In this document: piece after piece, positions 1 to 58,318 of the stretch
Position numbering within the stretch: position 1 is the first letter of the stretch
How the letters are laid out: each line of letters begins with the position of its first letter
DNA from: Escherichia phage VerenaGrendelmeier_Bas101
Sequence record: PQ850631.1
Reading direction: 5' to 3' (one strand)
Length of the DNA: 64,000 nucleotides
Translations under genes and position numbers: made by a program
Notes under the pieces: generated by a model
What the model was told of the DNA's origin: nothing
What the model saw: only the letters and a program-made list of their open reading frames with translations
Database searches by the model: none

Positions 1-1
1 C

Positions 2-781
2 CCATCCAACGCTATTGCGATGGCCTATCGTCGTGAGATGAAAGGTCTTTGCTATGCGATGATTGACGACTATCAAGCAGGAATTGCTGAGTGGCTTGAA
101 AAGAAGCAGGTGAAAAAGTTCTTTGCGCAAGACTCTGCTGATTCAACTTTTCAGACCTTGATGAAGCGCCTTCAACTGAAATGGGCAAAAGCATTCGCCC
201 GTGTTGGGTCAAAGATTGCTGCAGATTTCATCAAGTCAGTTGAAAAGGGTGCGACTTCTGCTACATTCGCAAGTCTTAAATCTGCAGGAATAGAAGCGCC
301 AAAAGCCACATATAATAAATTCGTTGAGAACACTCTTAAAACAAGCGAGACGTTCAACACGACTCTAGTGACTAAGGTTGGCGAGGATATTCACAACAGG
401 GTGTACGAAGCGGTGATGCTTTCGCTGACTTCGCCAGACCCAGCGCAGCAAGGCACATCCGGCATTCAGGCGGCACTAAGGAATGTAAAACAATTCTCTG
501 CAAAACGCGTAGACCTTATCGCCAAAGACCAAACGAGCAAACTTTATTGCGTATTAAGTGATGAAAGGATGCGACAGAATGGCGTTGAGGAATTTGAGTG
601 GGCGCATTCAGGAGCAGGCAAAGAGCCGCGAATATCACATGAGCACGTCGACGGCATGAGATTCAAGCTTGATGACAAACGCTTATGGGAAGTAGGTGGA
701 GAACTTAAGTTCAAAAAGGGTGACATCGGTCCTCCTGGATGGGCAATACACTGCAAGTGCAGAAAAATACCAATTATCTGA
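2..781 (+). CDS. head morphogenesis protein, MuF/SPP1 gp7-like (5'-partial at window edge)
   Basis: Frame is open from the window start. C-terminal motif HSGAGKEPRISHEHVDGMRF...PPGWAIHCKCR is typical of the Mu F head morphogenesis domain. Confidence 0.65.
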   Translation, partial: PSNAIAMAYRREMKGLCYAMIDDYQAGIAEWLEKKQVKKFFAQDSADSTFQTLMKRLQLKWAKAFARVGSKIAADFIKSVEKGATSATFASLKSAGIEAPKATYNKFVENTLKTSETFNTTLVTKVGEDIHNRVYEAVMLSLTSPDPAQQGTSGIQAALRNVKQFSAKRVDLIAKDQTSKLYCVLSDERMRQNGVEEFEWAHSGAGKEPRISHEHVDGMRFKLDDKRLWEVGGELKFKKGDIGPPGWAIHCKCRKIPII

Positions 782-788
782 GGTCATT

Positions 789-1709
789 ATGACGATACCA
801 ATCAACACATTCCCTCTATCTGGACAAACTCCAGTCTTGCCTGCGGTGTATGCTAATGGCTTGGCAATTGTCTCAGAATTCACTTCTGATAAAAACTTGA
901 TTGTTCCACTGAGCCCGCCGCTTGCATCAGGGTATAACTCAGTAGGTCAATTCTTTATGATTGGCAATGATGGCGATTCGACCAGCAAGCCTAACCTGAC
1001 ATTGTCTGTGCCTAAGATGAACATCACAGACGTTCAAACTGGCTTGACTGCATCAACAATCACCATTGCTTTTGGTGAAGCAGTGATCATAGGTATGGAG
1101 TCTGGAGGGTCGAAAAACGCTGTCGCAGTCAAAGTTGTGAAAACCAGCGGCAACCAATACACGTTACCAGCGGCAACAGCTTCCGTTCTTGGTGGCGTCA
1201 AAATAGGCACCGGAATAAGCGTAGCAGGTGATGGTACAATCAGCGTCACCCAATACTCATTGCCGATTGCCTCAGCATCTACTTTAGGCGGCGTAAAGGT
1301 CGGTACAACTCTATCAATTGATGGGTCTGGTGTGCTTAATGCAGCAGCAAGTACCGTCCAGAATGCCACTAATAGCGTCAGCAATCCTCCAACAACTTTG
1401 GTCAATCTGGCAACCTTAAACCTTCCTGCAGGGAAATGGCTTGTAACAGCAAGTCAGTTGACTGTCGCGACAGCAGGCGTTCAAGCGAATACCGGAATTA
1501 CAGTCAAATTGTCAACAAGCAATTCAGATATTACGGATGATGCATTTGCCATGTCAGCTGGAATTCGGGCTGCAGGTCGCTTCGGCGGCAACATCCCAAC
1601 AAAAGTAATTACTCTTGCCGCGCCTGGTAATGTGTATTTAAACTATCAGTGCACCGACGCGTTGACATCTACCGTTTACGGACAGATCACCGCAATTAAG
1701 CTGAACTAA
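789..1709 (+). CDS. structural protein with tandem fiber-like repeats
   Basis: GAGG RBS 5 nt upstream of ATG. Internal ~32-aa repeats (PAATASVLGGVKIGTGISVAGDGTISV / PIASASTLGGVKVGTTLSIDGSGVL) resemble fiber-type repeats. Confidence 0.55.
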   Translation: MTIPINTFPLSGQTPVLPAVYANGLAIVSEFTSDKNLIVPLSPPLASGYNSVGQFFMIGNDGDSTSKPNLTLSVPKMNITDVQTGLTASTITIAFGEAVIIGMESGGSKNAVAVKVVKTSGNQYTLPAATASVLGGVKIGTGISVAGDGTISVTQYSLPIASASTLGGVKVGTTLSIDGSGVLNAAASTVQNATNSVSNPPTTLVNLATLNLPAGKWLVTASQLTVATAGVQANTGITVKLSTSNSDITDDAFAMSAGIRAAGRFGGNIPTKVITLAAPGNVYLNYQCTDALTSTVYGQITAIKLN

Positions 1710-1719
1710 AGAGGAAGTT

Positions 1720-1857
1720 ATGCAAAAGATTATTCAGTCACGTTATGTTAAAGTGCGAAATATTAATTGCAACTCTTTGCTTTCTTGGAAATGGGCTGTT
1801 TATGACTCGATGTTGATTGGCGTTTTAGTGGCAGGAGTGCTATTTAATATTCACTGA
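1720..1857 (+). CDS. small hydrophobic protein (45 aa)
   Basis: ATG preceded by GAGGAAG RBS; C-terminal hydrophobic stretch MLIGVLVAGVLF. Below the ORF-track size cut-off. Confidence 0.3.
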   Translation: MQKIIQSRYVKVRNINCNSLLSWKWAVYDSMLIGVLVAGVLFNIH

Positions 1858-1890
1858 ATTCATCGGCAAAGGATTGCCGCGAGTTTTATA

Positions 1891-2160
1891 CGTATAATGA
1901 CGTATCATCCGTATCAAGTAAGTTGTTGTTTTCAAAAGAATCTTACGGATGATACGCGTTGCCGCCGTACCATATAGGAATTCAAATAAATTAATTTAAA
2001 ATTATATATCTAATTTAATTTTATTTTTTTATAAACTCTTATATATGAAAAGTATCCGTATCATCCGTATCATCCGTAGCACACCAGTGATAGCGCGACT
2101 TATACACCGATACGGATAAAAATACGCCTCATTTTATCCGTATCATCCGTATCACACTAA
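1891..2160. repeat. iteron-like region: at least 8 copies of the 9-10-mer TCATCCGTA(TCA), both orientations, flanking an AT-rich tract (1981-2050)
   Basis: Copies at 1905-1916, 1943-1953 (rc), 2052-2078 (three tandem), 2109-2118 (rc), 2135-2154. Shares blocks with 54327-54615. Confidence 0.7.
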
Positions 2161-2211
2161 TAAAGGCGCGGCTATATCGGTTGTTATACATATTCAAACC
2201 ATAATTATTGT

Positions 2212-2240
2212 TTGCCTAAGTTTTTTTCATTAGATATAAT
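2212..2240 (+). promoter_or_regulatory. sigma70-like promoter TTGCCT-17-TATAAT for the structural operon
   Basis: -35 at 2212-2217, 17-bp spacer, -10 at 2235-2240, about 25 nt upstream of the 2264 start. Confidence 0.4.
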
Positions 2241-2263
2241 ACACAATACTTATTTGAGGGTGG

Positions 2264-3685
2264 ATGCGAATGCAAACGGCACGCGAAATTGACAAAAATG
2301 GATTCTTGACGATTATGGGTTGTCCAATTTCGTCATTTGGCATTTTTGATTATTCTGCTGGTCAAGTTGGTCTTGATGGTGATCCGAATCGCATCGTAAA
2401 AGTCTATCGCCCTGAGTCAGCGGTGAAAGACCCCGAAGCGATAGATTCATTCAAAAATATCCCTTTCATCGACAATCACGAAATGCTTTCTGGATTTGAA
2501 GGTGATGAGGATAACACGGCACCCGAAGAGTATGGTGTCGATGGCGTTCTAACTGGCAATGTTTATTATGACAAGCCATGGATGCGCGGCGACCTTAAAG
2601 TGTTCAGCCGTCGTCTTAAGAAGGCCATTGATTCTGGAAAGGTTGACTTGTCTTTGGGCTATGACTGTGAATTCATCATACAGTCTGGAGAGTTTGACGG
2701 GCAGCCGTATGAAGTGGTGCAGACAACTCTTCGCGGCAACCACATTGCTCTCGTGGACGTTGGTCGAGTACCAGGTGCACGGGTGCTGGATGGTCGTTGC
2801 TTTGACCATCTTTGTTTGACGACTGTAACACCATCCAACGAGGATTTAGACATGCCAAAACCGTTAAAAGGTAAAGCGCGTGATAATGCTGTTGAACAGC
2901 TGAAATCACTGATCCCTGCGCTCGAACAATTTCTGAATGAAGAGAGTGCTGAAGCTGCTCATCAGGACGAAGTTGAAGTGAAAGCAGAAGAGAAGGACTC
3001 AACCGAAAATCGTGAAGAAGTAATGGTTGATCCAGAAGTCAAGGCAGAAGCAGAAGAAACCCCAGAAGGTGAAGAGAAGTTTGAAGTTGAAACTGAATCT
3101 CACGCTGACGGCGAACTTCCGCAATTGATCAGCCAAATCGAAGCACTTATTGCAAAACTGAAAGGTGGCGCGGTAGGTGATGAAGAAGAAGTTGAAGCCG
3201 AAGTCAAAGACGAAGAAGAAGTTGAAGTCAAGGCTGAAGATGTATCACCTTGCGACAAAGCTGAAGATGTGGTTAGCGGCCTGCAAAACAGCAACGTAAA
3301 GGGGGCTTCGGTCGAAAAAGATGACAAACCGACAAAAGCGGCGAAAGCGTCGCCAGGTCCAGCAAAAGGGGAACACTCAATGGCATCTGATTCAGCAGTT
3401 GCTGCTTTCTACGCTGATTCTGCTCGTAAGAATAGCCTCTACCAGCGCCTGTCTAAAGTTGTTGGTGCCTTTGATCATGCAACTATGGACTCCAAGTCCG
3501 TAGCGAAATATGGCGCTAAAAAGTTAGGCTTGAAGTGCGTTGATGGTGCTGAGTTTGACGTGGTGGATAATTATCTGCGCGGCGTTGAGCACGGTCAAAA
3601 ACAGCGTGTAGTCGCAAAACAAAAGGCCGCTGCGGATTCTGCAGCAACTGACGAAGCATTTGAAGCTTGGTTGAAAGGGGAATAA
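2264..3685 (+). CDS. capsid maturation protease / scaffolding-like protein (DUF2213-like N-terminal domain, acidic repeat C-terminal half)
   Basis: N-terminal 200 aa resemble phage prohead protease-like domains. C-terminal half is highly acidic with tandem EEEVEAEVKDEEEVEVKAED repeats. An in-frame ATG at 2270 has better RBS spacing. Confidence 0.5.
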   Translation: MRMQTAREIDKNGFLTIMGCPISSFGIFDYSAGQVGLDGDPNRIVKVYRPESAVKDPEAIDSFKNIPFIDNHEMLSGFEGDEDNTAPEEYGVDGVLTGNVYYDKPWMRGDLKVFSRRLKKAIDSGKVDLSLGYDCEFIIQSGEFDGQPYEVVQTTLRGNHIALVDVGRVPGARVLDGRCFDHLCLTTVTPSNEDLDMPKPLKGKARDNAVEQLKSLIPALEQFLNEESAEAAHQDEVEVKAEEKDSTENREEVMVDPEVKAEAEETPEGEEKFEVETESHADGELPQLISQIEALIAKLKGGAVGDEEEVEAEVKDEEEVEVKAEDVSPCDKAEDVVSGLQNSNVKGASVEKDDKPTKAAKASPGPAKGEHSMASDSAVAAFYADSARKNSLYQRLSKVVGAFDHATMDSKSVAKYGAKKLGLKCVDGAEFDVVDNYLRGVEHGQKQRVVAKQKAAADSAATDEAFEAWLKGE

Positions 3686-3687
3686 AC

Positions 3688-4305
3688 ATGATTTTCCAAA
3701 CTAGTGTAGGCCGTCAATATACAACTGGCTTTCCTGGCGACATCGTTCGCGACGGCCCACAGCGTGGGAAGCCAGGCCGAATCGTTAGCGCCAACGACGG
3801 TGCAAACGTAAACGCCATCAGCCGTGTGTTTGGTTTTAAGGCTGACGTGTCATTAATGGGTACTGGCCAAACCAAAACCTTGGGCGCGCAGGACTTTGAA
3901 GTTGAACTGGGCGGCACCAATTACTATGGCATCCTTGGCAACAGCAAGCGTTACGCTCTGTATGGCAACTCTACTGGTCCTTTGGGTGCCAGCATGGTTC
4001 TGCCTCAATATAGCGAAGGCGAGTTCTATGATATGTGCACGGGCCTCGTAGTTGAAGTATTCAACCCAAGCACCAGTCCGCAGACGCTGAACTACGGCGA
4101 CCTGCTCGCTTATGTACCTAAAGGCATTTCCAGCGGTAACAACCCGAACAACTTGCCTATCGGTGCAATTATCGCCTATACTGGCTCACTGCCAACTGGC
4201 ATGGTTGCCATTCCAGGCGGTATCGTGATTGACCCGACTGCTATTGCCCTTTCCGGCCCAAGCGTCCAGTCTTCCACTTATACCATTGTACAATTGACTC
4301 GTTAA
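3688..4305 (+). CDS. head protein of unknown function (possible decoration/cement protein)
   Basis: AAGGGG RBS then ATG at 3688; lies between protease/scaffold and major capsid genes. Confidence 0.4.
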   Translation: MIFQTSVGRQYTTGFPGDIVRDGPQRGKPGRIVSANDGANVNAISRVFGFKADVSLMGTGQTKTLGAQDFEVELGGTNYYGILGNSKRYALYGNSTGPLGASMVLPQYSEGEFYDMCTGLVVEVFNPSTSPQTLNYGDLLAYVPKGISSGNNPNNLPIGAIIAYTGSLPTGMVAIPGGIVIDPTAIALSGPSVQSSTYTIVQLTR

Positions 4306-4319
4306 TAGGCAGGTGAATA

Positions 4320-5459
4320 ATGACTCGCATTAGCCAAACACACTCTCGCCTCCCAGCGAGCAAGGTGCGCCCTTTTGATATGCAATCCGTTACTGACGCG
4401 GCTGTTTCCCAGCTTGCTCGTATCGGTATTGTGTTTGATTCCGCGATTGTGCGTGATCAGATTGAGCACTTAAACCGTGCAGGCGCTTTCCGCGTAGGTG
4501 ACGCCGCGTTTACTGCGCCGCAGACTACTCCGTCAATCCCGACCCCGTTGCAATTCCTGCAGCAGTGGCTGCCTGGCTTCGTCAAAATCATGACCGCTGC
4601 TCGTAAAATCGACGAGCTGGTTGGTATTGATACCGTTGGTCAGTGGGAAGATGCAGAAATCGTTCAGGGCATCGTTGAACCAGCTGGCACCGCAGTTGAA
4701 TATGGTGATTTCACATCTATTCCTCTGGCAAGCTGGAACGTAAACTTTGAACGTCGTTCTATCGTTCGTGGCGAAATGGGCATGGCAGTTGGTATGCTGG
4801 AAGAAGGCCGCGCATCCGCTATGCGTCTGAACTCCGCAGAAACCAAGCGCCAGCAGGCTGCTGTATCTCTGGAAATCATGCGTAACGCAATCGGCTTCTA
4901 TGGTTGGTACAACGGGAACAACCGCACATTCGGCTTCCTGAATGATCCAAACCTGCCAGCAGCGATGACTTCCAACACCACTTCCGGCTGGGCTACTGCG
5001 ACTTTCCAACAGGTAACTGCAGACATCCGTTTGATGGTTCGTCAAATTCGTGTGAACTCTCAGGACCAGATTGATCCAGAGAAAGTTGACATGACTCTGG
5101 CGCTGCCGACTAACTCTATCGATTGGCTGTCCAACACCACTGACTTCGGTATTTCTGTACGTGACTGGATCACCCAGACTTATCCGAAGATGAAGATCAA
5201 ATCTGCACCGGAACTCAACGGCGCACTTGGCAGTGACCCGACTTTCTTGAACGTGGCATACCTGTACGCCGATCACATCGATTCCTCAATCGATGGTTCA
5301 AGCGATGATGGTTCCGTATTCAGTCAGCTGGTTCAAACCAAGTTCATGACTCTGGGCGTTGAAAAGCGTGCTAAGAGCTACGTTGAAGACTACGCAAACG
5401 CAACAGCAGGCGTTCTGCTCAAGCGTCCGTTCGCAGTCGTCCGTATGACTGGTATTTAA
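4320..5459 (+). CDS. major capsid protein
   Basis: 379 aa, position after scaffold, strongly optimised codon usage, followed by a hairpin; resembles the DUF2184-type capsid family. Confidence 0.7.
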
Positions 5460-5574: not shown

Positions 5575-6039
5575 ATGTCAAAATACATCGTTTCAACTAT
5601 GTCTATGTCAGTTAACTACACTTTCTATACGGAAGTGAAAGAAAACCCGAATGCAAAAGCTGGTTCAGGCGCTCTTCCAAATATTCGCAAACAGATTCTA
5701 ATCAAGGGCGGCGCTGGTCTTACTTCAGCAACTTCCGGCTTTGGTGAAATGGCAAAAGGCGCTGACGGTGCACCTTTGTGGACTCCTGAAGGAATCGTCA
5801 CCGTTGTAAGCGATGCAGATTTTGAGCATCTGAAAGATCATCACGTGTTTAAGCAGCATCTTGAAAAAGGTTTGGTGAAAGTCGTAAATCACGACATTGT
5901 TGGCAACCACAAAGCCGTCGCTAAAGAAGTTCGCAGCATGTCAGACGACCCGTTTGCGCCTATGACGCGCGAAACTGCTGACAAGCGCATCAAGGTAAAA
6001 TTGAGCGGCGACCAAGAAGATGATTTGTTCCGCGTTTAA
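5575..6039 (+). CDS. hypothetical structural protein
   Basis: ORF with ATG start in the structural operon. Confidence 0.45.
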   Translation: MSKYIVSTMSMSVNYTFYTEVKENPNAKAGSGALPNIRKQILIKGGAGLTSATSGFGEMAKGADGAPLWTPEGIVTVVSDADFEHLKDHHVFKQHLEKGLVKVVNHDIVGNHKAVAKEVRSMSDDPFAPMTRETADKRIKVKLSGDQEDDLFRV

Positions 6040-35567: not shown

Positions 35568-36440
35568 CTATTTATTGAAATTAATATTGTGGGTGTTGAC
35601 GAGACGTTCACACATGGCGCTGTAAACACCATCATCGTGTATAGAGTCTTCGTGCTTCAGGCCGCTGATTGCAAAGCGTGTAAGCTTGACAATCTTAAGC
35701 TCGAACAGATGCCACATGTGGTAGTCTTCCGGCGTTTTCAACGTTACGCCATTAGGGAAAAGCACCTGCATAACCTGGCCTACCATCACAGCGTTATCGC
35801 CATAGACAGCGTTACGCTCACGGAAAGTCGCGGCCATCGCATCAAGAATATCGGCGGCGGTTGCCGGAGATTGTTTGATTTCCACTGCTTTAGTCTCTTC
35901 TTGCCCCGTTGCGCTTGGATCAACTGCTAATCGTTGCACTACTTCACCTGCCTTGCAAAGATTAAATGTAAAAGCGATTTTATTTTGAGCAACGGAATTA
36001 TAATCCATAGCTTCTTTACGCATCGCCGCGAGTACGTCTTGTCTGTCGTCAAACACATTAATGATTCGATAATCGCCGTGACGCAATGCGTAATATAGCC
36101 ATTCAGACTTCATAATAGTTGATGGACGTTTGTCGCCATAGTCTCTCATCTTGATTGTAAATTCATCAAAAGGGAAAACATTGTCCAGACGTTCAAAAGT
36201 CACTTGTCTGTATTTTTCTGGCCTTGCAGTCCAATATTCAACCGCCTCACCGCGAAGAGATGCCGACTCTACTGCTGATGCAATGTGAGGATAGAACTGA
36301 TCATAACCAATACCGCTGTAATAATCATCATAGTCTGACAACGGACCTGCCACCTTGATGCGGTCTAAGCGCCAACGGTCATCAAACAGCGTTCCGTCAA
36401 GGTCGAATACGTTTAAAATTTCGCTGTTTTTAATGCTCAT
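35568..36440 (-). CDS. HAD-family phosphatase fused to a C-terminal domain of unknown function
   Basis: Motif I FDLDGTLFDD, later NVFDDRQDV; ~140-aa C-terminal extension. Confidence 0.55.
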   Translation of the reverse strand: MSIKNSEILNVFDLDGTLFDDRWRLDRIKVAGPLSDYDDYYSGIGYDQFYPHIASAVESASLRGEAVEYWTARPEKYRQVTFERLDNVFPFDEFTIKMRDYGDKRPSTIMKSEWLYYALRHGDYRIINVFDDRQDVLAAMRKEAMDYNSVAQNKIAFTFNLCKAGEVVQRLAVDPSATGQEETKAVEIKQSPATAADILDAMAATFRERNAVYGDNAVMVGQVMQVLFPNGVTLKTPEDYHMWHLFELKIVKLTRFAISGLKHEDSIHDDGVYSAMCERLVNTHNINFNK

Positions 36441-53551: not shown

Positions 53552-54000
53552 TGGGCAAACGGCTTATCGCCGCTGGTTGGGCCATACCGAAGTGGGGCCA
53601 TCGTGCGCATTACTTTGACGAAGGAGAAGGGCAAAGCCTTTGTGGTCGCGCAACATATTTCGGTGATGAGCGCGTCAGCGGCGATTATATCGATTCGCTT
53701 TTAGGTAAAGGTGATTGCAAGAAGTGCCAAAATATATTAAGAGATATTCTTACGCAAAAAGGATTGCTTGAGCTTGATGAATCGGAAGAAGTAATTGATC
53801 TTAAGCTGGAAGCCAATCACCTTATTAATATGTTCAAGAATTATTACTTAACTAATATGCGCTCAAAGATGCGTAAGGAAGTAATAGAAGAGGTACTCAC
53901 TTACAATCCTTTAAGGATGAATAAAACTAAATTGAAGAAGTTTAATATAATGATAAGGAAGGAATTTAAAAGGCTTGGAGTGAAGAATTTTATATTTTAA
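53551..54000 (+). CDS. hypothetical protein
   Basis: AGGAGG RBS; CxxC...CxxC-like cysteines; last gene before terminator. Confidence 0.4.
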   Translation: MGKRLIAAGWAIPKWGHRAHYFDEGEGQSLCGRATYFGDERVSGDYIDSLLGKGDCKKCQNILRDILTQKGLLELDESEEVIDLKLEANHLINMFKNYYLTNMRSKMRKEVIEEVLTYNPLRMNKTKLKKFNIMIRKEFKRLGVKNFIF

Positions 54001-54016
54001 TAGTGATTAATGTTAA

Positions 54017-54038
54017 GAGGGCCGATTGGCCCTTTTTG
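54017..54038 (+). terminator. rho-independent terminator ending the early block
   Basis: GGGCCGATTGGCCC followed by TTTTT. Confidence 0.65.
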
Positions 54039-54039
54039 T

Positions 54040-54290
54040 TTGCCTGTGGTATGTGAGGATTTATTATCGGATAAAGCGATTGATTTGTGCAAATCTATTA
54101 GAGGGTCATGGGTAGTGAGGATTGTGACGTGAATTTTGTGTCTTGAATATGTGTGCGAATCTGGAAGATTATTGTACTGTGGTGCTGTGGGATTGTAGAG
54201 GGAATCACTAGGAATTGGAGCGTGTACCGTGGTGTGTGGTCCTGTAGGCTGCGCCGTCTATGGGATTGTCGCTTGAAATTAAAAAGGAGA
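54040..54290. repeat. non-coding GT-rich tract with GGGATTGT / GAGGATTGT repeats
   Basis: Strong G+T skew on plus strand; no ORF; repeats near 54118, 54192, 54262. Confidence 0.5.
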
Positions 54291-54326
54291 TATAGTTAGC
54301 TGGCTAACCTTACGCATAGAATTTAA

Positions 54327-54615
54327 GCGTATAATGACGTAAGATTTGGACCTATCCGTAGTTCACTCCACACACTTCTATGGTGCGCCGCGACTGGGTT
54401 CAGTGGTACATCTTACGGATGATACGGATGATACGCGTCGCCGCTATACTTTATACAACTTTGAAAAAAACAATTAACTCCATTTTGAATTAATTTAAAT
54501 TAATTTTTTTCTACATCCTCATACTTATACTAAACTTATATTTATACGTATTATCCGTAAGATATAAGTAAAAACAAAGACTTGCGGCAATACGGATGAT
54601 ACGTCACGATACGCT
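54327..54615. repeat. second iteron-like region homologous to 1891-2160
   Basis: Shared blocks GCGTATAATGACGTA, ATCTTACGGATGATACG...GCCGC, AT-rich AATTAATTTAAA tract, TATCCGTA copies. Confidence 0.65.
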
Positions 54616-54778
54616 TCAACCAGCCAGCAGCGGCTAAGTCATTGATTTGCATAACAAGCGACGAAAGGGATGGATTTCTTTTATACGTATCAAACAGTAC
54701 ACCACGCACCACGGTCCGTTATCCATCCAGCACTATGATTTGTGTACGTTTATAGCCATAATGAACATCAATCTGCAC

Positions 54779-54807
54779 TTGAATATAATGTCCATCCATT
54801 GTATAAT
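54779..54807 (+). promoter_or_regulatory. sigma70-like promoter TTGAAT-17-TATAAT
   Basis: -35 at 54779-54784, -10 at 54802-54807, upstream of the TerS-like ORF. Confidence 0.35.
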
Positions 54808-54817
54808 TCACACTATT

Positions 54818-56298
54818 AATTTGCACTATGGGATTTTGCACTATGAGTCAAGATTATGTAGCGATGCCTGAAGACTTTGAAGACCCGCGATTCGCAGAGC
54901 ACAATCAGGCTTTATTCGATGAGTTCATTGACCTTGTTATTCAGGGCCATGACATGCGCGCAGCTTTTGCACTAGTATTTGGAATGGAAGTTGCAACGGA
55001 TAACTACACTGGCCAGCGAATCCTTTGCACGCAACGCAATCCATACTACAAGATGCGCTTCAAAAAGCGTATGGAAGAGATGCCACTCAAGGATTTGTGG
55101 AGCGTAAAAGGTGCAATTCACAATTTGGTCAAGCTTGTGCGTGATCCAGAAGTCGCGGCGTCAGCCAAGCTTAATGCTATTCGTGAACTGAATATCATCT
55201 ATGGCATCACGATGATTGATGAAAACGGCAATAGTAAAATGGGCCGTTCTATGGACGATTTCTACAAGGATTTTGGAGAGGCGGCCAAAGAAGGCGAGCA
55301 ATTCTCCCGCCACTAGCCAATTTGCACTATAAAACGGCCCTAGAACACATTGTCTCCACTTCTAGGGCCATCGGTAATACGACGGGGAAGGTTGCAACCG
55401 TAAACGCGTTAGAAAGTGTATTATTATAAGTCATCTTTTAGTCACCTTACGTAACAATTTACGACCTTCAACCGTCCAATCGAACGACTCCACCAGCAGA
55501 TTCGCACTATAACCTAAGATGATGCGCCCTTTCTCGTTATCGACCCGCCAACAAGTCTCGAATAGCATTCGATTTGCACTATTAACTATCGCCGCAACGC
55601 GCGTTGGGTAAACGCAATTTGCACTATGGTCGTAAAGGGATAAGGTGCGACCACTTCCGATGGACAATGTAGCGATGAGAATAAGCGTATTCATAAGCCA
55701 CCAATTTGCACTATGAAAAGCGACCCCGAAGGGCCGCCATTCGATTAGATAATCTGGAATGTGTAGGACTTGTTGCCGAACTCAAAGTTCAAGCGTCCAG
55801 CTTCTTTAAGCTTCATGCGGAAGCGAATGTGCTTACTATCCGGTAAGCCCAGCGCGGCGAACGCCACGCGGACCGATTTGAACTCGCCTACACCCTCGAC
55901 CATAACGCCGTTACGCGTGAGACGCTTTTGCGCCACTTCCTTGTTATCCCAACTTTTTGCAATACCTTCGCTATTCGAACGGCGATGGGAAGGAGTTCCA
56001 TTTTGCACTACGCAATTTGCACTATCGTTTAGGCCGCTTTTAACGAAGGCTTCATACTCTTCGTCGGTCATCGCGTCGAGTTCTTCCTGGGTCGGCTCGG
56101 CCTTTTTAACGACCGCACGCGCCTTATGCGTTTTTACATCGCTGGACACTTCCTCGCGCGGCTTCGCGTCGGGAATGGGCGATTCGTTGGACGGCTCATC
56201 GAGCGCGTTTAAGGACTCGATTAACGCGATTACGCGAGTCTCGGCGGTACGGCGGTCCGCAAATTTCTTAATCGGCTTCGAACCGGAATTTGCATTAT
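54818..56298 (+). repeat. strand-specific array of about 10 copies of the 12-mer AATTTGCACTAT (and one-mismatch variants)
   Basis: Copies at 54818, 54833, 55319, 55499, 55571, 55616, 55703, 55999, 56014, 56287, all in the same orientation, irregular spacing, crossing coding and non-coding DNA. Confidence 0.75.
54828..55316 (+). CDS. terminase small subunit-like DNA-binding protein (orphan; start ambiguous 54828/54843)
   Basis: HTH-like GHDMRAAFALVFG followed by LKDLWSVKGAIHNLVKLVRDPEVAASAKLNAIRELNIIYGIT; no large terminase gene adjacent. Confidence 0.35.
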   Translation: MGFCTMSQDYVAMPEDFEDPRFAEHNQALFDEFIDLVIQGHDMRAAFALVFGMEVATDNYTGQRILCTQRNPYYKMRFKKRMEEMPLKDLWSVKGAIHNLVKLVRDPEVAASAKLNAIRELNIIYGITMIDENGNSKMGRSMDDFYKDFGEAAKEGEQFSRH

Positions 56299-56371
56299 AA
56301 AATGCAACGAGGTCGGCGGTCTTAGTTGCGATAACGTCGCCGCTAGTCGAGAAACGATTTAAGCTAACCAT
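55745..56371 (-). CDS. hypothetical protein (208 aa)
   Basis: Long ORF with codon usage distinct from the structural genes (AAG, CGC, TCG-rich); contains embedded 12-mer copies. Confidence 0.4.
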   Translation of the reverse strand: MVSLNRFSTSGDVIATKTADLVAFYNANSGSKPIKKFADRRTAETRVIALIESLNALDEPSNESPIPDAKPREEVSSDVKTHKARAVVKKAEPTQEELDAMTDEEYEAFVKSGLNDSANCVVQNGTPSHRRSNSEGIAKSWDNKEVAQKRLTRNGVMVEGVGEFKSVRVAFAALGLPDSKHIRFRMKLKEAGRLNFEFGNKSYTFQII

Positions 56372-56451
56372 AATGAACTCCTATTTGTTAGGGCGCTAGG
56401 CGCGAAAGAATTTTATTAAAGCGCCGCGCGCGACGCTCTAAAAATCCTCTC

Positions 56452-56766
56452 TTACTCTTCGTCGTCTTCGATTAATTCGAGGGCGAAGGCGTAAGCTTTG
56501 CTATCGTAATTAACTAAAACGGCGAGTTCGAACTCGTTAATAAACGCCGTTTTACCGCATAAATTTAATTCCGCATCGACTTCGAAGAATCCGTTTTCGT
56601 CGCGCTCTAAGCGAGAAGCAGCGAGTTGCTCGATTACCGTCGCGTCGTTAATTTCTTCGCCTAAGCGAACGCCGGAGAATTTCGCGAGAATTTCGCCGTA
56701 AGTAAGCGTAACGCCCTGGACTTCGGCGGTTGCGTTTTCGAGGGTAAAGCGGGTAACGATAGCCAT
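56452..56766 (-). CDS. small acidic protein (104 aa)
   Basis: Strongly acidic, ends ...LIEDDEE. Confidence 0.45.
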   Translation of the reverse strand: MAIVTRFTLENATAEVQGVTLTYGEILAKFSGVRLGEEINDATVIEQLAASRLERDENGFFEVDAELNLCGKTAFINEFELAVLVNYDSKAYAFALELIEDDEE

Positions 56767-56906
56767 AATAAACTCCTAGTTGGGAGAGGCGTTAACGACC
56801 TATTCGTTAACTCATCCCGTCCCGATATGAGTACATTATAATATAGTGTAGAAAAAAGTAAAGCACTTTTTCGATAAAAATGCGATAAATTATTTTATCT
56901 TTTTTC

Positions 56907-56934
56907 TTTACTTCTTCGTACACTCGCGTATACT
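56907..56934 (+). promoter_or_regulatory. sigma70-like promoter TTTACT-16-TATACT with conserved GTACACT spacer and TTGTTTATATCGAGA leader
   Basis: Near-identical architecture to 57305-57333. Confidence 0.45.
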
Positions 56935-56988
56935 TGTTTATATCGAGACGGGCGATGGCCCTTCCTTCTACTAGCATCGGGAGTTTTA

Positions 56989-57293
56989 TTATGACCACTT
57001 TAATCTCTTCTATCCTTACTTACGACGAAGACCGTTTAACCGTTCGCTCTCTTATCGCCGCCGTTAACGCGGAACTAGAATCCACCATTATTAAGGTCCG
57101 CGCGGTCGCTTTCGTCGGCCTTTCCTTCGACGATATTAAGTACGCCGAACGTAGCGCCATCCGCTTCGCGAAGACCGACGACGAAGCCGTTACCCTTATC
57201 GAGACGGTTACGCCGCGCGGCGAAGCGTTAATTATCGTCGAGTATATCGACGTAGAAGGCGATAAGGCTTATAAATATTTTATTGCAGAATAA
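56989..57293 (+). CDS. small acidic protein (101 aa)
   Basis: ATG at 56989; acidic. Confidence 0.45.
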
Positions 57294-57304
57294 CGAAAAA
57301 GTGC

Positions 57305-57333
57305 TTTACTTCTTCGTACACTAAGACTATAAT
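57305..57333 (+). promoter_or_regulatory. sigma70-like promoter TTTACT-17-TATAAT, paralog of 56907-56934
   Basis: Shares CTTTACTTCTTCGTACACT and the GTTTTATATCGAGAG leader. Confidence 0.45.
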
Positions 57334-57400
57334 GTTTTATATCGAGAGGGGATGAGGTAGCGAATAGGTCGCTACCCGCCCGACCAACTAGGAGATTATT

Positions 57401-57691
57401 ATGATTACTTTAGCCGCTATCCGTTCCGCTCGCGTCGAGACTTCCGAAAACTCTAACGTATTTGGCGAAACCTTAGAGAGCGTTTATCTCTCTAACGTAG
57501 ACGCAACTATCGAACCTATTTATGAGCCGATCAACTTCCTCGACCTTTACAAGTATCGCGACGAGGACATCGTATCATCCCGCGTAACGATTAACGGCTT
57601 CGTCTATACGATTACCGAAATCGGCGGCGAATATCTCGCTGTACCGCAACTCGGCGGCGAAGTAACTTATTTTAAAATTGTCTCCTTATAA
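57401..57691 (+). CDS. small acidic protein (96 aa)
   Basis: GGAG RBS, ATG at 57401. Confidence 0.45.
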   Translation: MITLAAIRSARVETSENSNVFGETLESVYLSNVDATIEPIYEPINFLDLYKYRDEDIVSSRVTINGFVYTITEIGGEYLAVPQLGGEVTYFKIVSL

Positions 57692-57710
57692 TATCCTTCC
57701 GTTACTAATA

Positions 57711-57736
57711 GGCCGCGCTTAGTCGCGGCTTTTCTT
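57711..57736 (+). terminator. rho-independent terminator
   Basis: GCCGCG...CGCGGC stem followed by TTTTCTT. Confidence 0.6.
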
Positions 57737-57854
57737 CGTCCCTATCTCGATGCGCTTCTCCGCGAAAACTCCTTTATCCTTCCCTTCGTCGTCGCATAAT
57801 CTTCGTCGAGATGCGCCTTAGTTCGCATAACAGGTATTACGTTAAATGGAGAAC

Positions 57855-57931
57855 ATCGCGTAAGTCCTTGTTTTATATAGACACCTATATCGGACCGTTA
57901 GGGCGGGTCGCGTAAGTCGTTGTTTTATAAA
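57855..57931 (+). repeat. direct repeat pair TCGCGTAAGTC(C/G)TTGTTTTATA
   Basis: Copies at 57855-57879 and 57907-57931; shares TTGTTTTATA with the leaders of the two promoters upstream. Confidence 0.55.
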
Positions 57932-58055
57932 GGCGCAAAACTTTCCCTTCGTTCCGAACTAAAACGAGGAATATGCCGACCCTTCGCCCGAAAATAGTAC
58001 GCATGCGAAATCACATGCATCTCGAATAATCCCCACCGATATTATCCTACACGCA

Positions 58056-58118
58056 ATCATTCGCTTTCGAATCATTATGCTTCATATTATTATGCGTCGA
58101 ATCATTCGCTTTCGAATT
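58056..58118 (+). repeat. direct repeat pair AATCATTCGCTTTCGAAT
   Basis: Copies at 58056-58073 and 58101-58118, each with a TTCGAA palindrome. Confidence 0.55.
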
Positions 58119-58205
58119 GTAACGCTGGAAACTGTAACGGCGATTGATTATTGCGTTCGTGTGGTTTTTAGGGCATGGGTCTTTTGGTGCGTTTTGGTGC
58201 TTGAT

Positions 58206-58318
58206 GGAATTTGCGGTACACTAATCAAAATACGACACATTTGGTCCACTAACTTTTCAAAGAAAAAGTCCTAGACAGTACCGTACTATTTTGTACCCAC
58301 AGGAATTTGCAGTACACT
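58206..58318 (+). repeat. direct repeat pair GGAATTTGC(G/A)GTACACT
   Basis: Copies at 58206-58222 and 58302-58318; combines the AATTTGC core with the GTACACT promoter-spacer motif. Confidence 0.5.

What the first reader, a model, noticed from the sequence alone, without database searches (positions are those of the whole stretch)
54818..56298. Strand-specific array of about ten AATTTGCACTAT 12-mers across 1.5 kb
The same 12-mer (core AATTTGCACTAT, a few one-base variants) recurs about ten times between 54818 and 56298, always on the plus strand, with irregular spacing and two tandem doublets 12-15 bp apart. It crosses an intergenic region, the TerS-like ORF and two minus-strand ORFs, so it is a DNA-level signal, not a by-product of protein repeats. 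It has no sigma70 -10 partner and is not a DnaA box. Candidates: pac/TerS-binding repeats, centromere-like or initiator iterons, promoters for a phage-encoded single-subunit RNA polymerase (CACTAT resembles the core of T7/SP6-class promoters), or strand-specific nick sites of the kind described in T5- and phiKMV-type phages.
Basis: seen in the sequence. Interest (0 to 1): 0.8.

Follow-up and report, generated by a model that had tools for sequence, protein, structure and literature searches.

The report
One-strand 12-mer array around phage terS
A short DNA word (AATTTGCACTAT) is written about a dozen times, always on the same strand, around the small-terminase gene inside the terminal repeat of an E. 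coli phage and its distant relatives; it is most likely an undescribed directional signal for handling the genome end, probably in DNA packaging.

Summary
AATTTGCACTAT has 8 matches at one mismatch or fewer (0.62 expected) and 12-13 copies of the core TTyGCACTAy between 54805 and 56298. All are on the + strand and there is no other cluster in the 64 kb.

The window is a Wifcevirus, an E. coli myovirus. The array fills the left half of its ~3.7-kb direct terminal repeat (DTR, ~54482-58184), starting ~320 bp from the left genome end. It surrounds a genuine small-terminase gene: the homologue of phage E217 TerS, PDB 7UXE.

The same word class (rATTyGCACTAy) forms one-strand arrays around terS in nine lineages, down to 41% TerS identity, with about 95 copies on the terS strand and none opposite. 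Copy positions shift, and copies sit in rare codons and in a disordered linker, so selection acts on the DNA.

In seven of those lineages the array is interleaved with co-oriented arrays of the host Chi site. Relatives with permuted genomes (Pbunavirus) lack the word.

My best reading, at about 0.37, is an oriented terminase (TerS) recognition array, like cosB or pac. The main rival is a Chi-like signal for processing the genome end. Phage-RNA-polymerase promoters and DnaA boxes are rejected. No description was found in the papers searched.

The parts
54482..58184 (.). Direct terminal repeat (DTR) of the phage genome. The array occupies its left half.
   Evidence: Boundaries were transferred by alignment from Escherichia phage Mansfield, whose PhageTerm DTR is 1-3673. 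WFC and WFH records carry a ~3.7-kb repeat at both ends.
54805..54816 (+). Motif copy 1, degenerate (AATTCACACTAT). First of a triple directly after the -10 of the terS promoter.
54818..54829 (+). Motif copy 2, exact AATTTGCACTAT
54833..54844 (+). Motif copy 3 (ATTTTGCACTAT). Its last two bases are the AT of the terS start codon (ATG at 54843).
54964..54975 (+). Motif copy 4, weak (CTTTTGCACTAG), inside terS. It encodes F-A-L using the rarest Leu codon, CTA.
55319..55330 (+). Motif copy 5, exact. It lies 2 bp after the terS stop and just before the bidirectional terminator hairpin (55336-55369).
55499..55510 (+). Motif copy 6 (GATTCGCACTAT). It lies 1 bp after the only exact Chi complement in the DTR (CCACCAGC, 55490-55497) and sits inside the 87-aa minus-strand ORF.
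55571..55582 (+). Motif copy 7 (GATTTGCACTAT), inside the 87-aa ORF. The position is conserved across several lineages.
55616..55627 (+). Motif copy 8, exact, inside the 87-aa ORF. The 45-bp spacing to copy 7 recurs in L017, L140, L141 and L142.
55703..55714 (+). Motif copy 9, exact. It lies between the start of the 87-aa ORF and the terminator that follows the 208-aa ORF.
56000..56011 (+). Motif copy 10 (ATTTTGCACTAC), in the disordered linker of the 208-aa ORF. Absent from ECML-117-type Wifceviruses.
56014..56025 (+). Motif copy 11, exact, in the same linker. Absent from ECML-117-type Wifceviruses.
56287..56298 (+). Motif copy 12 (AATTTGCATTAT). It differs from the ECML-117 allele only by synonymous changes.
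54843..55316 (+). terS, the small terminase subunit. It is the candidate reader of the motif.
   Evidence: A profile of 12 homologues matches PDB 7UXE (phage E217 TerS) at E=1.2e-64. The AlphaFold model's best PDB fold match is 7UXE at E=1.9e-6, followed by PaP3 and NV1 TerS.
54779..54807 (+). Sigma70-like promoter of terS (TTGAAT-17-TATAAT)
   Evidence: A TATAAT box occupies the same place in L017, L018 and Kyle.
55431..55694 (-). 87-aa ORF with a signal-peptide-like N-terminus. It hosts three copies and is found only in motif-bearing lineages.
55745..56371 (-). 208-aa ORF (phrog_4730). It hosts three lineage-specific copies and is not correlated with the motif.
54407..54603 (.). Terminus module. 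An AT-rich core holds the left genome end (~54482), bracketed by TACGGATGATACG repeats. It is a possible cut site that would work with the array.

Best explanation
The array is the oriented recognition site of the packaging terminase, read by TerS. It would be the counterpart of lambda cosB or a pac site, for a phage that makes exact 3.7-kb terminal repeats.

Proposed mechanism:
1. TerS rings (the homologue is a decamer) bind the rATTTGCACTAy words spread over ~1.5 kb around their own gene.
2. Because all words point the same way, they load and orient the TerS-TerL complex beside the left DTR boundary. That boundary lies in an AT-rich module ~320 bp upstream.
3. The array thereby licenses cutting there, and not at the duplicate of that module elsewhere in the genome.
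4. The three copies on the terS promoter and start codon additionally let TerS limit its own synthesis.

Shown: the anatomy, TerS identity, uniqueness in the genome, strict orientation, conservation of the word, and selection at the DNA level.
For: 1. The array wraps a bona fide terS and begins ~320 bp from the PhageTerm-defined left terminus. By established knowledge, TerS recognition sites of lambda, P22, SPP1 and P1 lie in or next to the terS gene and next to the cut site.
2. It is the only cluster in 64 of ~68 kb, as expected of a packaging signal.
3. The word class is kept in nine lineages whose TerS is 41-97% identical. Five relatives lack it while keeping terS and the 208-aa gene: Pbunavirus PS44, MyoSmar, XcP1, Maja and Gekk3-15.
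4. Pbunaviruses are reported as circularly permuted, i.e. headful packagers (PMC12345254). Their E217 TerS shows no appreciable DNA binding in vitro (PMC9611059).
5. A TerS sequence switch tracks the motif. All 11 motif-lineage sequences have [Q/K/R]-R-N-(P/R)-Y; all 5 non-motif sequences have an acidic residue (E or D) followed by S, F or A at those two positions. The position is the end of a helix in the N-terminal helical domain.
6. Selection is on the DNA. Copies use the rarest Leu codon (CTA, 3.8%) and the rarest Ser codon (AGT, 9.3%). They occupy every intergenic gap. Two were written into a disordered linker (pLDDT <50), and one arises by synonymous changes only. The nine copies shared by all Wifceviruses vary at 4/108 columns against 238/1568 elsewhere (p=3e-4; this subset was chosen post hoc).
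7. TerS overexpression lowers E217 infectivity (PMC9611059). That fits a need for autoregulation at the promoter-proximal triple.
Against: - No binding data exist, and the only characterised homologue (E217 TerS) did not bind DNA in vitro.
- The array is far longer (1-1.5 kb) and more irregularly spaced than known pac or cosB sites.
- Known TerS sites do not show such absolute co-orientation.
- The word barely changes while TerS diverges to 41% identity. That is unusually stable for a TerS specificity and would also fit a conserved host factor.
- MyoSmar has an exact DTR but no such array.
- The promoter-proximal triple is absent in Kyle and L018, so autoregulation is not universal.
- Co-extension and co-orientation with Chi arrays point at least as naturally to a process that starts from the free left end at infection.
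- Across all 12 copies, within-genus conservation is no better than background.
Confidence: 0.37

Rival explanations
1. An oriented end-processing or recombination signal that works alongside Chi. The word would be read by a machine entering the naked left genome end at infection: a host or phage helicase-nuclease, or a factor acting on the resected strand such as a primase/helicase loader or a protective protein. It would stop degradation inside the redundant DTR and start recombination-dependent circularisation, concatemerisation or replication.
For: - Seven of nine motif lineages carry 2-10 copies of CCACCAGC (five of them 5-10 copies). This is the complement of Chi (GCTGGTGG). MyoSmar, which lacks the motif, carries 4.
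- These Chi copies are interleaved with the motif, in the same ~0.3-2 kb from the left end and on the same strand, with none opposite.
- That orientation is the one active for RecBCD entering from the left end (orientation rule in PMC12315714).
- Strict one-strand use and count-not-position conservation are the signature of translocase-read signals. Chi and KOPS are the established examples.
- Terminally clustered Chi in phages lacking their own recombination genes is documented (PMC12315714).
Against: - The word is unrelated to any Chi sequence recalled here (E. coli, Haemophilus, Pseudomonas, Bacillus, Lactococcus, Staphylococcus; a list from memory, not a database check).
- E. coli has no known second sequence-regulated end-processing nuclease.
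- The E. coli phages, where Chi would work, lack the Chi array but keep the word. Motif and Chi counts are neither complementary nor proportional.
- The relative order of motif and Chi in adjacent pairs is inconsistent between lineages.
- Only the left end would be served.
Confidence: 0.2
2. Binding sites for a sequence-specific DNA-binding protein other than TerS. This could be a phage early/late regulator, a replication initiator (a dispersed iteron field next to the AT-rich terminus module), or a host protein that holds or stalls the entering DNA, as proposed for the DnaA boxes of the T5 injection-stop signal.
For: - An asymmetric 11-12-bp word with an A/T tract plus GCACTA is typical of a site for a monomeric helix-turn-helix protein (general knowledge).
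- Three copies sit at +1 to +40 of the terS promoter, which is an operator-like position.
- An AT-rich module flanked by another repeat family lies 320 bp upstream.
- T5 carries eight host-factor boxes in its terminal repeat (bioRxiv 10.1101/866236).
- The near-invariance of the word across divergent phages would suit a conserved host factor.
Against: - No candidate protein emerged. The 208-aa protein with a weakly winged-helix-like C-terminal domain (E>0.1) is also present in phages without the word. The 87-aa ORF looks secreted.
- Simple duplex binding does not explain roughly 95:0 strand bias.
- Spacing is unlike iterons, and the primase/helicase genes are 8-10 kb away.
- The word is not a DnaA box. 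It mismatches TTWTNCACA at positions 1 and 9, the invariant 3' TA(Y) lies outside the box, and the relatives' variant TCCGCACTA is worse.
Confidence: 0.18
3. Sites of strand-specific nicks introduced into replicating or packaged DNA. The nicks would provide 3' ends for strand-displacement synthesis that duplicates the terminal repeat. This is nicking of the kind seen in T5, phiKMV and tf.
For: - The signal is on one strand only and lies inside the DTR, where models of repeat duplication need a nick (T7 model, established knowledge).
- T5 and BF23 carry nicks in one strand (PMC10644984).
Against: - The word does not match the published nick consensus sequences as I recall them (phiKMV CGACNNNNNCCTACTCCGG; tf TACT/RTGMC).
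- Known nick sites are scattered along genomes, not clustered 12 times in 1.5 kb.
- No nickase candidate was identified.
- Nothing in the sequence can show a nick.
Confidence: 0.07
4. Promoters for a phage-encoded single-subunit RNA polymerase (T7/SP6 class), suggested by the shared CACTAT.
For: CACTAT(A/G) resembles the -5 to +1 part of the T7 and SP6 promoters (from memory).
Against: - No RNA polymerase gene is present in the fully annotated near-identical genome Bas98 or among the window's ORFs >=220 aa.
- Conservation covers ~11 bp, not ~23.
- Six copies lie inside minus-strand ORFs, antisense to them.
- Copies sit 13-15 bp apart, and one overlaps a start codon.
Confidence: 0.02

Closest known systems
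Lambda cosB (R1-R3 sites bound by gpNu1) and the pac sites of SPP1, P22 and P1
   Same: It is a cluster of short repeated words in and next to the small-terminase gene, beside the packaging cut site, and unique in the genome. The presumed reader is a ring-forming TerS with an N-terminal helical DNA-binding domain.
   Different: - 12 copies spread over 1.5 kb, rather than 3-7 copies in about 100-200 bp.
- Absolute co-orientation.
- It lies inside a 3.7-kb direct terminal repeat.
- The word is conserved across TerS proteins only 41% identical.
- Binding is untested.
Chi (GCTGGTGG) arrays clustered near phage genome ends (phage LLS and other Rec-less lambdoid phages; P1) - PMC12315714
   Same: It is a strictly oriented short word, enriched near one genome end and conserved in count rather than position. 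In seven related lineages it is physically interleaved with true Chi arrays of the same orientation.
   Different: The sequence is unrelated to Chi and no enzyme is known to read it. It is present in E. coli phages that lack the Chi array.
T5 injection-stop signal (DnaA boxes in the left terminal repeat) - bioRxiv 10.1101/866236
   Same: It is an array of a short protein-binding word inside the long terminal repeat of a virulent coliphage, conserved across the phage group.
   Different: - T5 boxes are paired, in both orientations, and confined to an untranslated region. They match a known host-factor site.
- Here the word runs through genes, uses one strand only, and fails the DnaA-box consensus.
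T7 short repeat arrays flanking the terminal repetition (recalled from Dunn and Studier 1983; not checked here)
   Same: These are strand-specific short direct repeats next to or within the terminal repeat of a DTR phage, with an unproven role in concatemer processing.
   Different: T7 repeats are 7-bp units closely packed in ~170 bp of non-coding DNA. Here, 11-12-bp words are scattered over 1.5 kb that is mostly coding.
KOPS (FtsK-orienting polar sequences)
   Same: Oriented 8-12-mers that would load or steer a dsDNA translocase in one direction through a winged-helix reader. This is the mechanistic analogy for how co-orientation would serve a terminase.
   Different: KOPS are chromosome-wide and read by FtsK gamma. 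This is an analogy only and nothing was tested.

Membership tests
TerS recognition site (pac / cosB type) | Lies in or adjacent to the small-terminase gene | tested here: met
   Copies run from 38 bp upstream of the terS ATG to ~980 bp past its stop. terS identity rests on 7UXE.
TerS recognition site (pac / cosB type) | Lies next to the packaging cleavage site or genome terminus | tested here: met
   The first copy is ~320 bp inside the left DTR boundary, defined by PhageTerm in Mansfield and transferred by alignment. The layout is the same in Kyle, whose DTR is 3603 bp.
TerS recognition site (pac / cosB type) | Unique in the genome | tested here: met
   There is no second cluster in 64 kb. 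One stray TTGCACTA occurs at 35934. About 4.7 kb of the genome lies outside the window.
TerS recognition site (pac / cosB type) | Bound sequence-specifically by the cognate TerS | not testable with these tools
   The only data concern a homologue: E217 TerS shows no appreciable DNA binding in vitro (PMC9611059).
TerS recognition site (pac / cosB type) | Presence tracks the TerS lineage and packaging mode | tested here: inconclusive
   The word is present in all 9 lineages of one TerS clade and absent in 5 outgroups. A [QKR]-R versus acidic-[SFA] switch correlates with this. However, MyoSmar has an exact DTR without the word, and the lineages are not phylogenetically independent.
Chi-type oriented hotspot | Single orientation relative to a DNA end, with conservation of number rather than position | tested here: met
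   About 95 copies on the terS strand and 0 opposite in the arrays of nine lineages. Positions shift between lineages.
Chi-type oriented hotspot | Sequence equals the host's Chi | tested here: not met
   ATAGTGCAAATT is not GCTGGTGG. The window's DTR has only one exact Chi complement, which is the background level.
Chi-type oriented hotspot | Modulates a helicase-nuclease entering from the end | not testable with these tools
   The only pointer is co-location and co-orientation with true Chi arrays in relatives.
Iteron-type replication origin | Regularly spaced direct repeats (~20 bp units) beside an AT-rich region and the initiator gene | tested here: not met
   Spacings run from 13 to 486 bp. 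The repeats are mostly inside genes. The primase/helicase genes are 8-10 kb away. An AT-rich module exists 320 bp upstream, but it has its own different repeats.
T7/SP6-class phage RNA polymerase promoters | A phage-encoded single-subunit RNA polymerase plus a ~23-bp promoter upstream of co-oriented genes | tested here: not met
   There is no such gene. The conserved word is ~11 bp. Six copies lie inside minus-strand ORFs, antisense to them.
DnaA boxes (as in the T5 injection-stop signal) | Match to TTWTNCACA | tested here: not met
   ATTTGCACT mismatches at positions 1 and 9. The invariant TA(Y) lies outside the box. The relatives' variants TTCGCACT and TCCGCACT add further mismatches (consensus as quoted).
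Localized single-strand interruptions (T5, phiKMV, tf) | A nick present at the motif in virion DNA | not testable with these tools
   This needs denaturing gels or read-start analysis of raw reads. The word does not match the published nick consensus sequences as recalled from memory.

The most novel reading that the evidence does not exclude
The word is a second polar signal, used alongside Chi at the genome end. It would be read on one strand by a helicase-nuclease, or by a phage replication or recombination loader, moving in from the left genome end. Phages of this clade would then carry two interleaved 'stop degrading, start recombining or replicating' codes in their terminal repeat. One code is borrowed from the host (Chi); the other is of unknown reader.
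Probability: 0.17. Interest if true: 0.85.

Novelty: new variant of a known kind. Interest (0 to 1): 0.62.

Why it matters
How phages with long exact terminal repeats choose their cut sites and duplicate the repeat is, to my knowledge, largely unknown. This covers T5-, SPO1-, Wifcevirus- and many therapy-relevant myoviruses.

A conserved, strictly oriented word array around terS, 320 bp from the terminus, gives a concrete and mutable candidate for that signal. Wifcevirus genomes can already be rebuilt from PCR fragments (PMC11074155), so the test is feasible.

If the array instead works with the co-oriented Chi arrays of its relatives, it would reveal a new directional DNA code at the first-exposed end of an infecting genome. 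Either result matters for engineering these phages: synonymous recoding of terS and its neighbours could silently destroy an essential cis element.

Tried and rejected
1. A full-text search for the word and its complement returned only unrelated primers and oligonucleotides.
It returned unrelated tandem or coding repeats, none with a terS or p208 homologue. It was uninformative and not evidence of wider distribution.
3. Full-length or C-terminal-domain homologues exist in MyoSmar, XcP1 and Gekk3-15, which have no GCACTA array. Its fold matches to winged-helix proteins are not significant.
4. The sigma70, sigma54, extended -10 and MotA-box-like readings were rejected. There is no consistent partner element in the flanks (inspection).
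5. The DnaA box reading was rejected (against the consensus).
6. RNA element: there is no Rfam match, and the word is on the antisense strand of two genes.
7. By-product of a protein repeat: rejected. Copies lie in three ORFs on two strands, in two reading frames and in intergenic DNA, and they use the rarest codons.
8. An analogous array of a different word in Pbunavirus PS44, MyoSmar, XcP1, Maja or Gekk3-15 was not found. The Pseudomonas Chi is also not enriched in PS44.
9. The TTTGCRGTACAC pair just outside the right DTR boundary is Wifcevirus-specific and not seen in L017, so it was not counted as part of the array.
10. Avoidance of the word elsewhere in the genome: none is detectable, but counts are too small to say.
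11. Pfam and PDB searches of the other DTR proteins and of the 150-aa ORF before the DTR gave nothing.
Full report
**1. What the window is**

The region 54000-57000 is 93-97% identical to 28 phage records, all of genus Wifcevirus (E. coli/Shigella myoviruses such as WFH, WFC, FEC19, ECML-117, Mansfield and BASEL Bas98-100).

These phages have ~68-kb genomes with a ~3.7-kb direct terminal repeat (DTR):
- In Mansfield the DTR is defined by PhageTerm (PMC6753283).
- In WFC and WFH it is defined by sequencing (PMC6563267).

Aligning the Mansfield ends to the window puts the DTR at about 54482-58184. The reported array therefore lies inside the DTR. It starts ~320 bp from the left genome end and occupies the left half of the repeat. 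The window covers about 64 of ~68 kb, so a whole-window count is close to a whole-genome count.

**2.

- AATTTGCACTAT has 5 exact matches and 8 at <=1 mismatch, all on the + strand, against 0.62 expected. No shuffle gave more than 3.
- Weaker copies bring the total to 12-13 between 54805 and 56298, with none on the minus strand.
- Outside this stretch, the core 6- and 7-mers occur at expected frequency on both strands.
- The conserved word is c-(A/G)ATT(T/C)GCACTA(T/C). GCACTA is nearly invariant.

**3. Anatomy**

- A sigma70-like promoter (TATAAT at 54802-54807) is followed at once by three copies. The third overlaps the ATG (54843) of a 157-aa ORF.
- One weak copy lies inside that ORF.
- One copy follows its stop, just before a bidirectional terminator hairpin.
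- Three copies lie in an 87-aa minus-strand ORF, and one lies between that ORF's start and the next terminator.
- Three copies lie in a 208-aa minus-strand ORF.

Inside ORFs the word is read in two frames on the minus strand (S-A-N and V-Q-N) and as F-A-L on the plus strand. It uses the rarest Leu codon (CTA, 3.8%) and the rarest Ser codon (AGT, 9.3%) of this genome.

In ECML-117-type Wifceviruses the doublet at 56000/56014 is missing. The protein there reads NDAPVGADKIAS instead of NDSANCVVQNGT, in a linker that AlphaFold predicts as disordered (pLDDT <50). The copy at 56287 differs from the ECML-117 allele only by synonymous changes.

The signal is therefore selected at the DNA level. It is not a shadow of a protein repeat.

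**4. The neighbouring gene is a real small terminase**

- A profile of 12 homologues matches PDB 7UXE, the decameric TerS of Pseudomonas phage E217 (a Pbunavirus), at E=1.2e-64.
- The AlphaFold model's best PDB fold match is 7UXE (E=1.9e-6). The PaP3 and NV1 TerS structures come next.
- According to a review (PMC9611059), E217 TerS is encoded far from terL, lowers infectivity when overexpressed, and shows no appreciable DNA binding in vitro.

**5. Comparative evidence**

tblastn and protein searches recovered terS homologues at the same position (~350-600 bp from a DTR or contig end) in many relatives.

One-strand arrays of the same word class surround terS in nine lineages:

| Lineage | TerS identity to window | GCACTA-core copies on terS strand |
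|---|---|---|
| Window (Wifcevirus) | - | 11 (12-13 with variant cores) |
| L017 | 66-69% | 10 |
| L018 | 48-51% | 9 |
| L019 | 45-47% | 7 |
| Pantoea phage Kyle | 41-43% | 14 |
| L140 | 46% | 8 |
| L141 | 41% | 13 |
| L142 | 49% | 11 |
| L143 | 51% | 10 |

- Together that is about 95 copies on the terS strand and none on the other strand within the arrays.
- About 0.5 GCACTA per array window would be expected by chance.
- Some positions are ancient, such as the 45-bp pair in the 87-aa ORF. Others differ between lineages.
- Five further relatives keep terS and the 208-aa gene but have no such array: Pbunavirus PS44, Serratia phage MyoSmar, Xanthomonas XcP1, Burkholderia Maja and Aeromonas Gekk3-15.

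Two features track the array:
- The small, secreted-looking 87-aa ORF is found only in motif-bearing lineages.
- The TerS clade itself tracks it. It carries [Q/K/R]-R-N-(P/R)-Y where all outgroups have an acidic residue followed by S, F or A, at the end of a helix in the N-terminal helical domain.

Pbunaviruses are reported to be circularly permuted, i.e. headful packagers (PMC12345254).

Within Wifcevirus (10 genomes):
- The nine copies shared by all vary at 4 of 108 columns, against 238 of 1568 elsewhere (p=3e-4).
- Taking all 12 copies, there is no difference, because the three copies in the 208-aa ORF are lineage-specific.

**6. An unexpected companion**

In seven of the nine motif lineages, and also in MyoSmar, the same ~0.3-2 kb stretch carries arrays of CCACCAGC. 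This is the complement of the E. coli Chi site GCTGGTGG. There are 2-10 copies per lineage, all on the terS strand and none opposite.

This is the orientation recognised by RecBCD entering from the left genome end (orientation rule quoted in PMC12315714). That paper describes terminally clustered Chi in lambdoid phages that lack their own recombination genes.

Wifcevirus and L017 lack the Chi array. The window's DTR has one exact copy, at 55490, one base before a motif copy.

The two words are interleaved, co-extensive and co-oriented. Their counts are not complementary, and their order in adjacent pairs is not fixed.

**7. Interpretation**

The data establish an undescribed cis-acting word. 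It is strictly polar and confined to the left part of the DTR around terS. It has been maintained by selection on the DNA across a clade of enterobacterial myoviruses.

*Best reading (confidence ~0.37): an oriented terminase recognition array.*
- It has the location, uniqueness and gene association of cosB or pac sites.
- Its distribution matches one TerS clade.
- The best-studied outgroup lacking it, Pbunavirus, is a reported headful packager whose TerS does not bind DNA.
- Co-orientation would serve to load the motor in one direction, as cosB does for lambda and KOPS does for FtsK (an analogy).
- The promoter-proximal triple would give autoregulation.
- The terminus itself lies in the AT-rich centre of a ~240-bp module bracketed by a different repeat, TACGGATGATACG. 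That module has an inverted duplicate at 1880-2140. If the module is the cut site, the adjacent array could be what licenses cutting at only one of the two copies. This last step is inference.

*Main rival (~0.20): a Chi-like or Chi-cooperating signal.*
- It would be read from the free left end at infection.
- The strict polarity and the interleaved Chi arrays suggest it.
- No reader is known.
- The E. coli phages, where Chi would work, keep the word but not the Chi array.

*Other rivals.*
- A non-TerS DNA-binding protein acting as operator, dispersed initiator sites, or a T5-like injection stop: ~0.18.
- Nick sites: ~0.07.
- Phage RNA-polymerase promoters: ~0.02. There is no polymerase gene, the word is only ~11 bp, and six copies are antisense to ORFs.
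- DnaA boxes: rejected, because the word mismatches the box at positions 1 and 9 and keeps an invariant TA(Y) outside it.

**8. Novelty**

Searches found no description of this word or array. These covered papers mentioning Wifcevirus, Pbunavirus with direct terminal repeats, vB_Eco4M-7 or ECML-117, and the word itself.

If it is a TerS site, it is a new and unusually extended, polar variant of a known kind. To my knowledge it would be the first candidate packaging signal for a long-DTR myovirus group.

If it is a second polar end-processing code, it would be more novel. The evidence does not exclude that reading.

Noticed in passing
L011 (Pantoea phage Kyle) 255-1972; L018 323-1824; L140-L143 (terS-sense coordinates ~3040-5210); L013 (MyoSmar) 5653-5993; window 55490: Relatives carry arrays of CCACCAGC, the complement of Chi, with 4-10 copies. 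All are on the terS strand, in the first ~2 kb of the terminal repeat, and none are opposite. This is the orientation active for RecBCD entering from the left genome end. Wifcevirus and L017 lack the array; the window has one copy.
   Followed up: partly
window 54407-54603 and window 1880-2140: A second repeat family, TACGGAT(G/A)ATACG, brackets the left DTR terminus in both orientations (54414+, 54423+, 54547-, 54591+). The terminus (~54482) sits in the AT-rich centre. The whole ~240-bp module recurs, inverted and 71% identical, in the gap before the head protease gene (1901-, 1944+, 2057-, 2066-, 2139-). It could be a cut-site module, late-gene regulator sites, or an origin-like element.
   Followed up: partly
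window 58210-58221 and 58306-58317: Two + strand copies of TTTGC(G/A)GTACAC lie 96 bp apart, just outside the right DTR boundary (~58184). They share (A)ATTTGC with the array word. They are conserved in Mansfield but not seen in L017.
   Followed up: partly
window 56764-56876 versus 57291-57403: Long inverted repeats (arms of 65 nt at 82% and 33 nt at 88% complementarity) flank the + strand ORF 56934-57293. They mirror the promoter and 5' regions of the divergent genes in the right half of the DTR.
   Followed up: no
window 55985-56030 versus L005 (ECML-117) 4485-4530: Two alleles of the 208-aa protein differ by a same-length ~30-nt replacement in a disordered linker (NDSANCVVQNGT versus NDAPVGADKIAS). 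Only the window's allele carries the motif doublet.
   Followed up: yes
L011 803-817; L018 901-915; L141 and L143 (terS 3' end): The composite ATTyGCACTAyCCACCAGC (motif directly abutting Chi) encodes the conserved H-Y-P-P-A of the flexible TerS C-terminal tail in four lineages. The window's TerS lacks this tail motif.
   Followed up: no
L019 (3983-bp contig); contigs of P0006/P0129 (3755 bp) and P0134 (3983 bp): Several metagenome assemblies hold stand-alone 3.7-4.0-kb contigs that start a few hundred bp upstream of terS. These are probably terminal repeats assembled separately because of double coverage, which would imply DTRs of similar size in those lineages.
   Followed up: no
window 58039-58126 and 57856-57932: Direct repeats of 43 nt (74% identical, 45 bp apart) and 25 nt (92%, 52 bp apart) lie in the non-coding right end of the DTR, close to its right boundary.
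   Followed up: no
window 55431-55694 (-): The 87-aa ORF has a signal-peptide-like N-terminus (MNTLILIATLSIGSG). It has homologues only in the motif-bearing lineages (27-59% identity). Its function is unknown.
   Followed up: partly
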